Origin: Terracidiphilus sp.
GTDB lineage: Bacteria; Acidobacteriota; Terriglobia; Terriglobales; Acidobacteriaceae
Direction of reading: 5' to 3'
DNA length: 63,495 nucleotides
Assembly (NCBI GenBank): GCA_035604995.1
Contig: DATNHL010000287.1
Location: forward strand, 1 to 63,495
Below the pieces are notes generated by a model. It saw only the letters and a list, made by a program, of their open reading frames with translations. It had not been told where the DNA came from and made no database searches. The first letter of the stretch is position 1. Each line of letters starts with the position of its first letter. Shown piece by piece: positions 40,070 to 62,855 of this stretch. Both the position numbers and the translations under genes were made by a program.

Positions 40070-40189
40070 AAATCTCCTGGCGCGCGAGCGCCGTCTGCCC
40101 CACCGCAGGTGGTTGCGTACAATTACCCTTCTTTAGCGCACAATGGTCCATAGACGGCTGAAAAAGGCTGGATGAAGGGCGGAAAGGGG

Positions 40190-40278
40190 GGTACCCCCCC
40201 ATTTTCGTCCCAACCCCATGAAAACAAGCAGGTTACACCATTAACGTCCTTTTTCTCCTCTGAAAACAAAGGACTTAC
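40190..40278. repeat. Dispersed element with 42-bp-phased 18-bp motif (copy A)
   Basis: 47-bp block 46/47 identical to 62342-62388; motifs at 40219 and 40261. Confidence 0.85.
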
Positions 40279-60596: not shown

Positions 60597-60690
60597 AAGG
60601 AGTCCCAGGAATACCCGCTGAAAACAAAGCACTTCAGCCGGAATTCCCGCTCCGCCCCGCCGTTCGGACTGACCGTTTCCGCTCCGCCGG

Positions 60691-61957: not shown

Positions 61958-62341
61958 GCTTCCAACTCCGCGAGCAGGTCTGCCCGCCCCGAGCATCTTA
62001 CCGCCCGCGCCGCACCCGCCGCCAGTACCACAAAACCAGCGAATCGTTGGTCAGTTTCCGGATCGGAGAAAATCCGCCCGGGCGGGAAGAATACCTCGAC
62101 AAGTCATCAGACCCGTTGTCGCCGGTTGCTCGGGGAACCATCCGGATTGTCGCGTTACCTGTGGTTCTGCATTAGTGCTCGTCGCCTGGTTTCTCGCGTT
62201 CAATTCTTTTTCCCGCATTTGCAGATCATTCCGCTCCAACCGCGCACAATGGGTCTTGTGAGGATGAGCCATGGAAATCATTGACGCCCCCGTTGACGCC
62301 GCTGTCATGCCTCTTGTTTCGCCGTCTATTCTCCCCACCCC

Positions 62342-62472
62342 GGTACCCCCCCATTTTCGTCCCAGCCCCATGAAAACAAGCAGGTTACGCAAAAAATGAC
62401 CTCCTTGCCCTATCGAAATAAAGGACTTACGTCTTTCCCGCTTTTTGGCCTTTTCGAAAACAAAGGACTTAC
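62342..62472. repeat. Dispersed element with 42-bp-phased 18-bp motif (copy B)
   Basis: Motifs at 62371, 62413, 62455; shares 47-bp block with 40190-40236. Confidence 0.85.
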
Positions 62473-62597
62473 GGGCGGCTCAACCCGCGAAATCGCCGAT
62501 TCCTGGCGCATTTGTGCCCCTCCGCCGGCGATTTGCCGGCCGGAACAGTATTGATCTTGATCCTCGCGATTCGCCGTCGCTCTAAGCGACGGCGGCG

Positions 62598-62855
62598 ATG
62601 ATGATGCAGGCGCTAGATGCGGTGGTTGAAGCGGACGAACTGGACGCTATCAAGGAGATCGCCAACATGATTGCGGGCACGATCAAGTCCTCGTTGCCGT
62701 GGCCCTACTCGATGACGGTGCCGGAGTCGGCGGTGGAGCGGGAGGGGCTTTGCGGCCCGGCGGCGGCAACGGAGGACGCGCTGGTGGTGGCCTAACGTCA
62801 CGCGGCCGGCGGGCTGTTGGTGCGGGTCTGGGAGCAGGAGTGCACGGAGGGATAA
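62598..62855 (+). pseudogene. cheX: CheX-like phosphatase remnant
   Basis: DAIKEIANMIAGTIKS (ExxN motif); 5' part missing; in-frame TAA at 62793-62795. Confidence 0.6.

What the first reader, a model, noticed from the sequence alone, without database searches (positions are those of the whole stretch)
62342..62472. 18-bp motif in an exactly 42-bp-phased array with unique 24-bp spacers, present at two loci
Seen: three copies (TGAAAACAAGCAGGTTAC 62371, TCGAAATAAAGGACTTAC 62413, CGAAAACAAAGGACTTAC 62455) sit exactly 42 bp apart with unrelated 24-nt spacers, behind a leader GGTACCCCCCCATTTTCGTCCCA. The same layout recurs at 40190-40278. 42 bp is 4 helical turns. The motif resembles the IHF consensus WATCAA-N4-TTR but has one extra central base. 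Inference: a phased docking array for a DNA-bending/nucleoid protein, or a cas-less repeat-spacer RNA array. I do not recognise it as a described element.
Basis: partly seen in the sequence, partly recalled or inferred. Interest (0 to 1): 0.8.

Follow-up and report, generated by a model that had tools for sequence, protein, structure and literature searches.

The report
Phased IHF-like array on mobile cassette
The 42-bp-spaced motif array is one end of a roughly 300-430-bp DNA element scattered at 58 places in this soil bacterium's genome, whose longest copies carry a small gene of unknown function; the element is likely mobile and the array likely docks the host's DNA-bending protein IHF.

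Summary
The array is real: three sites exactly 42 bp apart. It is not a two-locus oddity and its spacers are not unique. It is the right-hand module of a dispersed element with 58 multi-site copies in this genome; site spacing is almost only 41-44 or 51-52 bp (4 or 5 helical turns). Each copy reads: promoter-like 32-bp box, variable interior, C-rich block, 2-3 IHF-like sites, decaying tail. Long copies carry a 118-aa four-helix gene with no Pfam, PHROG or fold match (110 of 150 genus genomes); a sister subfamily sits directly behind a tyrosine integrase (24 of 25 loci). The window's two copies lack the gene. The box occurs 0-70 times per genome across the genus, two filled/empty site pairs were found, and copies avoid divergent promoter gaps, so the family is likely mobile. 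It has no terminal inverted repeats or target duplications here, and the mobilising enzyme is unidentified. Site cores diverge 1.5% against 27% for spacers, which points to a protein-binding platform, likely for IHF (untested). A CRISPR-like RNA array is not supported. Seven literature searches found no description.

The parts
62153..62584 (+). 432-bp unit shared at 96.5% identity with a copy on contig C292 (and, up to a contig end, C231); the most recently duplicated form of this copy
   Evidence: contigs from other runs begin at 62153/62159 and end at 62584
62219..62250 (+). Left box of the element: TTGCAGATCATT-N11-GCGCACAAT; promoter-like (last hexamer varies as xAxxxT like a sigma-70 -10 element; 20 bp after TTGCAG); promoter activity is inferred
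62260..62273 (+). Ribosome-binding-site-like GAGGA and ATG, remnant of the gene start; opens a 42-codon frame (62271-62399) whose length is not kept in frame between copies
   Evidence: sequence; box-to-array distances of 136, 137 and 138 bp all occur
62333..62370 (+). C-rich block and T-tract leader; follows the stop codon of the four-helix gene in long copies; hot spot for a nested 123-bp MITE in other copies
62371..62388 (+). IHF-like site 1
62413..62430 (+). IHF-like site 2 (42 bp after site 1), T-rich stretch upstream in the family profile
62455..62472 (+). IHF-like site 3 (42 bp after site 2), T-tract upstream
62473..62584 (+). Weakly conserved tail with no sharp family-wide end; abuts a 5'-truncated cheX remnant
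40079..40112 (+). REP-like unit ending in the hairpin CCACC-GCA-GGTGG, directly abutting the left box of the second copy (21 of 64 boxes have it)
40113..40144 (+). Left box of the second copy
40186..40218 (+). G/C block (palindromic GGGGGGTACCCCCC) and leader of the second copy
40219..40278 (+). Two IHF-like sites 42 bp apart (second copy, between a GDSL-lipase gene and rpmE)

Best explanation
The array is the right-hand module of a gene-less short copy of a dispersed, genus-specific cassette (promoter-like box, four-helix gene in long copies, C-rich block, two or three phased sites); the cassette is likely a non-autonomous mobile element, and its sites likely bind the host's IHF-type heterodimer, whose in-phase bends would fold the element end into the nucleoprotein complex needed for copying or exchange by a still unidentified recombinase. 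Shown: the family, its anatomy, the 4-or-5-turn spacing, selective conservation of site cores, presence/absence at orthologous sites, replacement of one subtype by another at the same address, and the tight coupling of the gene's sister subfamily to a tyrosine integrase. Inferred: IHF binding, promoter activity, that the array serves mobility, and that the four-helix protein is an accessory of recombination. A 42-bp period leaves room for tandem 35-bp IHF footprints on the same helix face.
For: Family: 58 multi-site copies; 48 of 58 have the strict left box 106-502 bp upstream. Long copies with the gene between box and array: C342 (intact), C339 (frameshifted), and in relatives L020, L099, L101. 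Phasing: 99 of 100 intervals are 41-44 or 51-52 bp; one orthologous pair differs by exactly one 42-bp unit. Selection on sites: nearest-neighbour divergence 15/1008 in cores, 86/630 in the five central bases, 516/1932 in spacers; anchored only on box and leader, 57 of 57 first sites (55 distinct arrays) are within one mismatch of the core. IHF: five HU/IHF paralogues, one best matching IHF-beta (112.8 bits, cut-off 115) and one IHF-alpha (80.2, cut-off 111); AT-rich tract 11-17 bp upstream of sites 2 and 3 in the 42-bp type, as for strong IHF sites (PMC8421141, passages); perfect WATCAR-N4-TTR sites at the same downstream position in L055 and mixed with the AAAGGACTTA form in a sister array on C42, C76, C177. 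Mobility: box count 0-70 per genome, 120 of 150 genus genomes, reversed-pattern control 0; filled/empty pairs with both flanks syntenic at L227/C245 and L221/C31, 2 of 16 loci; enriched in convergent gaps (19/49 vs 132/845, p 2e-4) and depleted in divergent gaps (3/49 vs 281/845, p 2e-5); 8 of 18 elements of relative G062 sit where G000 also has one, but only 1 of the 8 is collinear throughout. Recombination link: 24 of 25 loci of one tyrosine-integrase family carry the four-helix gene directly downstream, mostly with an overlapping stop/start.
Against: No site matches the IHF consensus perfectly although the genome has 35 perfect sites elsewhere; both IHF-like paralogues score below the curated cut-offs. 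No terminal inverted repeats or target duplications over a mismatched-pair control in 54 copies, no sharp right end, and no recombinase beside any short copy. The integrase-linked genes form their own clade (22 rows, support 96, quick tree), their loci have no TTGC box, and that integrase was found in only 19 of 150 genomes and not in several box-rich ones such as G090 and G062, so it is not shown to be the mobiliser. Most long copies in the genus lack the 42-bp array (exact double pattern in 3 of 150 genomes), and in G111 and G155 the array plus G/C block lies in the opposite orientation to the box, so the array is an exchangeable module. The two empty sites are at 69-81% identity, so insertion cannot be told from deletion at base resolution. 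Gene orientations come from my own rough gene caller.
Confidence: 0.55

Rival explanations
1. Whatever their origin, the arrays are now kept by the host as nucleoid-organising or transcription-insulating IHF/HU platforms at gene ends; mobility is past history.
For: Cores stay conserved even in copies whose spacers differ by 30-50% from their nearest neighbour; 8 of 18 G062 elements are at addresses also occupied in G000; multiple IHF sites promote DNA bridging in vitro (PMC8421141, passages).
Against: 30 of 150 genus genomes have no box match and counts range to 70; subtype and orientation change between lineages; neither window address is occupied in the five relatives checked; a MITE inserts into the C-block of 7 copies.
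Confidence: 0.17
2. The sites are bound by the element's own four-helix protein (as an operator, packaging-site or directionality factor), not by IHF.
For: The motif departs from the IHF consensus in a fixed way; the gene is physically linked to the array in long copies; the fold is unassigned, so DNA binding is not excluded.
Against: The same AAAGGACTTA form occurs in a sister array without this gene; many gene-bearing loci have no such array, and integrase-linked loci show none in the sequence read; no helix-turn-helix or terminase match in Pfam, PHROGs, NCBIfam, PDB or BFVD. The TTGC box, present upstream in 29 of 30 gene loci and again downstream in 8, is the better candidate target for this protein.
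Confidence: 0.13
3. The cassette has no mobility system of its own and spreads only as cargo of other elements (REP/REPIN units, IS-derived MITEs) and by homologous recombination or gene conversion between copies.
For: In G155 the box-plus-array module lies inside terminal inverted repeats with matching CT(T/A)AG flanks in 2 of 6 copies examined; 21 of 64 G000 boxes abut a REP-like hairpin; subtype swaps at one address fit conversion; 21 of 58 C-blocks match a G-quadruplex pattern on the other strand.
Against: None of the 7 Y1-transposase hits in G000 has that hairpin within 700 bp; no transposase beside three further G155 inverted-repeat ends; pure cargo would not explain why site cores and phasing are conserved.
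Confidence: 0.13
4. A cas-less CRISPR-like repeat-spacer array processed into ~42-nt RNAs.
For: Repeat plus spacer length of 42 bp; a promoter-like box upstream.
Against: Spacers are homologous by position across 58 loci; never more than three repeats; the three repeats differ in a fixed order; no Rfam match; folding is no better than shuffles (z +1.39); one RNA-library contig spans 62331-62520 unbroken (depth 3, could be DNA).
Confidence: 0.02

Closest known systems
Correia/NEMIS 155-bp element of Neisseria (IHF-site-bearing MITE; PMC2229807, passages seen)
   Same: Dispersed intergenic non-coding repeat with an IHF site and promoter-like sequence; the IHF site has been proposed to aid transposition.
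   Different: Correia elements have 24-bp TIRs, TA target duplication and one IHF site; this family has no TIR/TSD in G000, 2-3 phased sites, and a long form with its own gene.
BIMEs/REP clusters of enterobacteria, including IHF-binding types (PMC3184786, passages seen)
   Same: Mosaic extragenic repeats that bind IHF, favour convergent gene ends and are linked to recombination.
   Different: BIMEs are built from palindromic REP units; this element is not palindromic or structured, is polar, has a fixed module order, and REP-like units only abut some copies.
Tyrosine-recombinase attachment sites with several IHF sites (lambda attP type) and integrase-plus-small-helper elements such as Tn554 TnpB/TnpC (recalled, not looked up)
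   Same: Multiple phased IHF-like sites; a small helical protein gene translationally coupled to an integrase.
   Different: No core or arm sites identified in the short copies; the box-linked genes are a separate, faster-evolving group without integrase; no sequence match to known helper families.
CRISPR arrays
   Same: Short direct repeats at a regular period behind a leader.
   Different: Spacers are conserved, not acquired; 2-3 non-identical repeats; two alternative periods; no cas1 found in the 75%-complete assembly.

Membership tests
MITE (Correia-like) | Terminal inverted repeats | tested here: not met
   54 copies: longest box-side/tail-side inverted match mean 7.6 vs 7.7 in mismatched pairs. 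One G155 sub-lineage does sit inside TIRs.
MITE (Correia-like) | Target-site duplication | tested here: inconclusive
   No excess of long direct repeats, but short TSDs cannot be seen without exact ends; empty sites too diverged.
MITE (Correia-like) | Many dispersed non-coding copies, filled and empty sites | tested here: met
   58 copies; two filled/empty pairs.
MITE (Correia-like) | Cognate autonomous element with a transposase | tested here: inconclusive
   Long form carries a non-enzyme-like four-helix gene; no transposase family match.
REP/BIME/REPIN | Built of palindromic, stem-loop-forming units | tested here: not met
   Fold z-score +1.39, 183 of 200 shuffles fold as well.
REP/BIME/REPIN | Same repeat flanks a RAYT/Y1 transposase gene | tested here: not met
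   0 of 7 Y1 hits have the box or the adjacent hairpin within 700 bp; assembly 75% complete.
IHF binding site | WATCAR-N4-TTR consensus | tested here: inconclusive
   1-3 mismatches, none perfect in the 58 arrays; perfect matches in related arrays.
IHF binding site | Upstream A/T tract | tested here: met
   AT fraction 0.6-1.0 at 11-17 bp upstream of sites 2 and 3 in the 42-bp type; site 1 has its T-tract at 18-21 bp.
IHF binding site | Binding and sharp bending by IHF | not testable with these tools
   Needs EMSA, footprinting or circular permutation.
CRISPR array | Unique, foreign-derived spacers | tested here: not met
   Position-specific spacer consensus across copies; 24-nt spacers were too short for the phage/plasmid BLAST tool and were not searched.
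CRISPR array | Known CRISPR repeat family or cas genes | tested here: inconclusive
   No Rfam match; no cas1 in a 75%-complete genome.
Xer/dif-type module | Box equals an arm of the genome's conserved dif site | tested here: inconclusive
   The one dif-like site in G000 was found in 0 of 120 other genomes of the order; the true dif was not identified.
Phage terminase small subunit/pac cassette | TerS-like sequence or fold | tested here: inconclusive
   No significant match in PHROGs, PDB sequences, Foldseek PDB/BFVD or VIA-align (best Z 7.2, rmsd 3.3, 82 aligned, an unrelated ribosomal protein).

The most novel reading that the evidence does not exclude
A new class of one-gene selfish cassettes in Acidobacteriaceae: a four-helix protein with no known relative, which in one branch is the obligate partner of a tyrosine integrase, has in the other branch gone solo with its own promoter and recruits a host recombinase to an IHF-wrapped, helically phased end, so that gene-less derivatives spread to dozens of sites and swap with one another without terminal repeats or a transposase.
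Probability: 0.2. Interest if true: 0.8.

Novelty: new variant of a known kind. Interest (0 to 1): 0.52.

Why it matters
It defines an apparently undescribed repeat family, present in most sampled genomes of an abundant soil/peat genus, and ties it to an uncharacterised protein family of 1151 clusters that is also the constant partner of an integrase. It gives a ready test of how a small element without terminal repeats spreads, a natural series of IHF-type sites phased at 4 versus 5 turns, and a handle on the binding specificity of acidobacterial IHF paralogues. It does not reveal a new RNA system and says nothing specific about the neighbouring thiolase, rpmE or TonB-receptor genes.

Tried and rejected
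Rfam: no match in the window. Structured RNA: not supported. RNA-library contigs: sparse, depth 2-4, one study; cannot show transcription or processing. Empty-site search in four DNA runs: no contig joining the flanks among the rows shown; no contig spans the whole repeat either, so the pairing of left and right flanks in the window assembly is not independently shown. G062 comparison: five elements absent from G000, but each with other DNA or a deletion in its place, so no clean ends. dif/XerC-arm idea: not supported. Protein searches: no Pfam, PHROG, NCBIfam, PDB or plasmid match, no relatives in viral contigs, Atlas neighbours only hypothetical Acidobacteriota proteins, no fold match. The one viral-contig hit for the double-site pattern is a chance match in AT-rich coding DNA. 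A recalled zinc-finger/LLYGLQ protein motif was not found in G000 or the held loci. Literature: seven full-text searches listed no paper on this element; subscription journals and supplements were not seen, and a supplementary repeat or MITE catalogue (for example of the preprint 10.1101/2024.01.18.576219, seen as a listing only) could hold it.

Full report
OBSERVATION. The three 18-mers are at 62371, 62413 and 62455, exactly 42 bp apart, behind the leader at 62342; the second locus has two sites at 40219 and 40261. The window is contig C287 of a 3.71-Mb, 62.5% GC assembly that is 75% complete. A PWM trained on the genome's own 165 regex hits finds 175 sites at score >=16 against 3 after local shuffling, and all 92 successive distances up to 150 bp are 41-44 or 51-52 bp. 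At a looser per-site threshold there are 58 clusters of two or three sites and 27 single sites; 99 of 100 intervals are 41-44 or 51-52 bp and one is 22. The spacers are not unique: each position has its own consensus, and C292 holds a 432-bp copy 96.5% identical to 62153-62584.

ANATOMY. 48 of 58 arrays have a fixed-length 32-bp box (TTGCAGATAATT-N11-GCGCACAAT) 106-502 bp upstream. Its last hexamer varies as xAxxxT across the genus, as a sigma-70 -10 element does; the 20-bp distance from TTGCAG is long, so promoter activity is inferred, not shown. Then come an RBS-like/ATG remnant, a variable interior, a C-rich block with a T-tract, the array, and a tail that fades over about 100 bp without a common end. 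The left end is sharp, and 21 of 64 boxes abut a REP-like hairpin. The longest copies carry a 118-aa ORF between box and C-block (C342 intact, C339 frameshifted); the same layout occurs in relatives (L020, L099, L101). The window's copies are gene-less short forms.

THE GENE. A profile finds 1151 clusters at 50% identity; Atlas neighbours are hypothetical Acidobacteriota proteins. It is in 110 of 150 genus genomes but only 3 of 250 genomes drawn from the phylum, all in the same family. AlphaFold gives four helices at pLDDT 89.5 with no significant fold, Pfam, PHROG, NCBIfam or PDB-sequence match. Of the 30 best genus loci, 29 have a TTGC box upstream, 18 a C-block after the stop and 8 a second TTGC box downstream. 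A second subfamily lies directly behind a tyrosine integrase in 24 of 25 loci (the 25th is near a contig end), with no TTGC box; these 22 distinct proteins form one side of a branch with support 96 in a quick tree of 71 rows and 108 columns. The integrase was found in 19 of 150 genomes and not in several box-rich ones, so it is a hint about the protein's role, not the demonstrated mobiliser.

SELECTION AND THE LIKELY LIGAND. Among 42 three-site copies, nearest neighbours differ at 15/1008 core positions, 86/630 central positions and 516/1932 spacer positions. Because these copies were picked by the motif, I repeated the test anchored only on box and leader: of 64 boxes, 57 had a leader, and all 57 first sites (55 distinct arrays) are within one mismatch of the core. 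An orthologous pair differs by exactly one 42-bp unit. Conserved cores at whole-turn spacing point to protein binding on double-stranded DNA. IHF is the best candidate: its consensus is WATCAR-N4-TTR, it covers 35 bp and strong sites have an upstream A-tract (PMC8421141, passages seen). The sites here are 1-3 mismatches from that consensus in either register and never perfect, but sites 2 and 3 of the 42-bp type have an AT-rich tract 11-17 bp upstream; related arrays carry perfect sites (L055; C42, C76, C177). The genome has five HU/IHF paralogues, one closest to IHF-beta and one to IHF-alpha, both below the curated cut-offs. Binding is untested.

MOBILITY. The box occurs in 120 of 150 genus genomes at 0-70 copies, with no reversed-pattern hits. 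The exact 42-bp double pattern is rarer: 3 of 150, and 16 loci in 8 genomes of the whole GTDB collection, all titled Terracidiphilus or Acidobacteriaceae. Two of those 16 give filled/empty pairs with G000, both flanks syntenic and about 400-430 bp extra in the filled form (L227/C245, L221/C31); at 69-81% identity the breakpoints are unresolved. Neither window address is occupied in five relatives, though synteny is only partial. Of 20 regions taken from relative G062, 18 hold an element: 8 at an address also filled in G000 (only 1 collinear throughout, the rest with a different subtype or left part), 5 absent from G000 with other DNA or a deletion there, 5 uninformative. With my own rough gene calls, copies are enriched in convergent gaps (19/49 vs 132/845) and depleted in divergent gaps (3/49 vs 281/845), as expected for tolerated insertions rather than promoter elements. 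Against a classical MITE: no excess of inverted or direct end repeats in 54 copies. In G155 a related module is enclosed by terminal inverted repeats with matching CT(T/A)AG flanks in 2 of 6 copies, and in G111 and G155 the array is inverted relative to the box, so modules are reshuffled and at least one lineage rode on another element's ends.

RNA READING. No Rfam hit, folding no better than shuffles, conserved spacers, at most three repeats, no cas1 in the incomplete assembly, and one unbroken low-depth RNA-library contig over the array (weak). Not supported.

MECHANISM. Most likely (0.55): a non-autonomous cassette whose phased sites bind IHF and fold the end into a recombination complex, so that copies with intact, in-phase sites keep being copied or exchanged; the enzyme is unknown and the four-helix protein is a probable accessory. 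Rivals: host-kept architectural platform (0.17), sites for the element's own protein (0.13), passive cargo plus gene conversion (0.13), CRISPR-like RNA (0.02).

KNOWN SYSTEMS AND NOVELTY. It works like IHF-site-bearing bacterial repeats (Correia elements, BIMEs; PMC2229807 and PMC3184786, passages seen) but fails their membership tests (no TIRs, not palindromic). Seven full-text searches listed no description; supplements and subscription papers were not seen. The scan's own index had nothing for this genome or these sequences; a word search returned a report of a similar Acidobacteriaceae repeat in front of a cysteine-rich gene and several phased arrays in other phyla, which are unchecked leads and suggest that dispersed phased arrays are a recurring kind. 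Verdict: new variant of a known kind, interest 0.52. Caveat: no contig in the laid runs spans the whole 432-bp repeat, so the thiolase-to-cheX junction of this particular copy could be an assembly join; the family-level results do not depend on it.

Noticed in passing
G000 C32:11450, C80:2623, C138:4979, C153:35347, C218:15357, C285:8685, C300:1921, C308:9264: A 122-123-bp MITE with 13-bp inverted ends (CATRRGCGCTAAG) and about 11-bp flanking direct repeats; 7 of 8 complete copies sit in the C-block of the element, in both orientations. An IS4-family origin is a recalled guess, not tested.
   Followed up: partly
G000 C42, C76, C94, C177 (minus strands): A sister array without the left box or gene: C-rich block, then IHF-type sites spaced 40-52 and 29 bp, then a promoter-like sequence pointing back through the array. 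In G115 (L178-L180) a G-rich block precedes the start of a Cys/His-containing ORF, as in earlier finding e1-5264095; identity of the families was not tested.
   Followed up: partly
L122/L183 (G000 C187:700-3650), L184, L108: A small integrative element at the 5' end of sucC: tyrosine integrase, four-helix gene and several short ORFs. The integrase's apparent N-terminal arm-binding part and its core lie in different reading frames in both genomes read, which may indicate a programmed frameshift.
   Followed up: partly
L068, L077, L079, L081, L120, L121: In one branch the four-helix gene is followed by a small ORF that looks like a ribbon-helix-helix protein; only a weak DUF6364 hit (E 0.018) for the one tested.
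   Followed up: partly
G111 (L133-L162), G155 (L163-L168): Recent expansions (70 and 24 boxes) in which the array and G/C block are inverted relative to the left box; in G155 enclosed by terminal inverted repeats with CTNAG flanks.
   Followed up: partly
window 62598-62795: 5'-truncated cheX remnant directly after the element; relatives have the intact upstream part, and a different gene upstream of the thiolase, so this copy marks a rearrangement breakpoint or an assembly join across the repeat.
   Followed up: partly
window 60619-60637: A single IHF-like site (PWM score 18) just past the 3' end of the thiolase gene, with no partner.
   Followed up: no
G000 C46, C78, C138, C181, C235: Perfect IHF consensus sites directly after what look like tRNA 3' ends (read by eye).
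   Followed up: no
L090 (G062 C13:150200-150600): An element copy interrupts a short ORF that follows an apparent antitoxin-like gene; G000 has a deletion at the same place. Gene identities were not tested.
   Followed up: no
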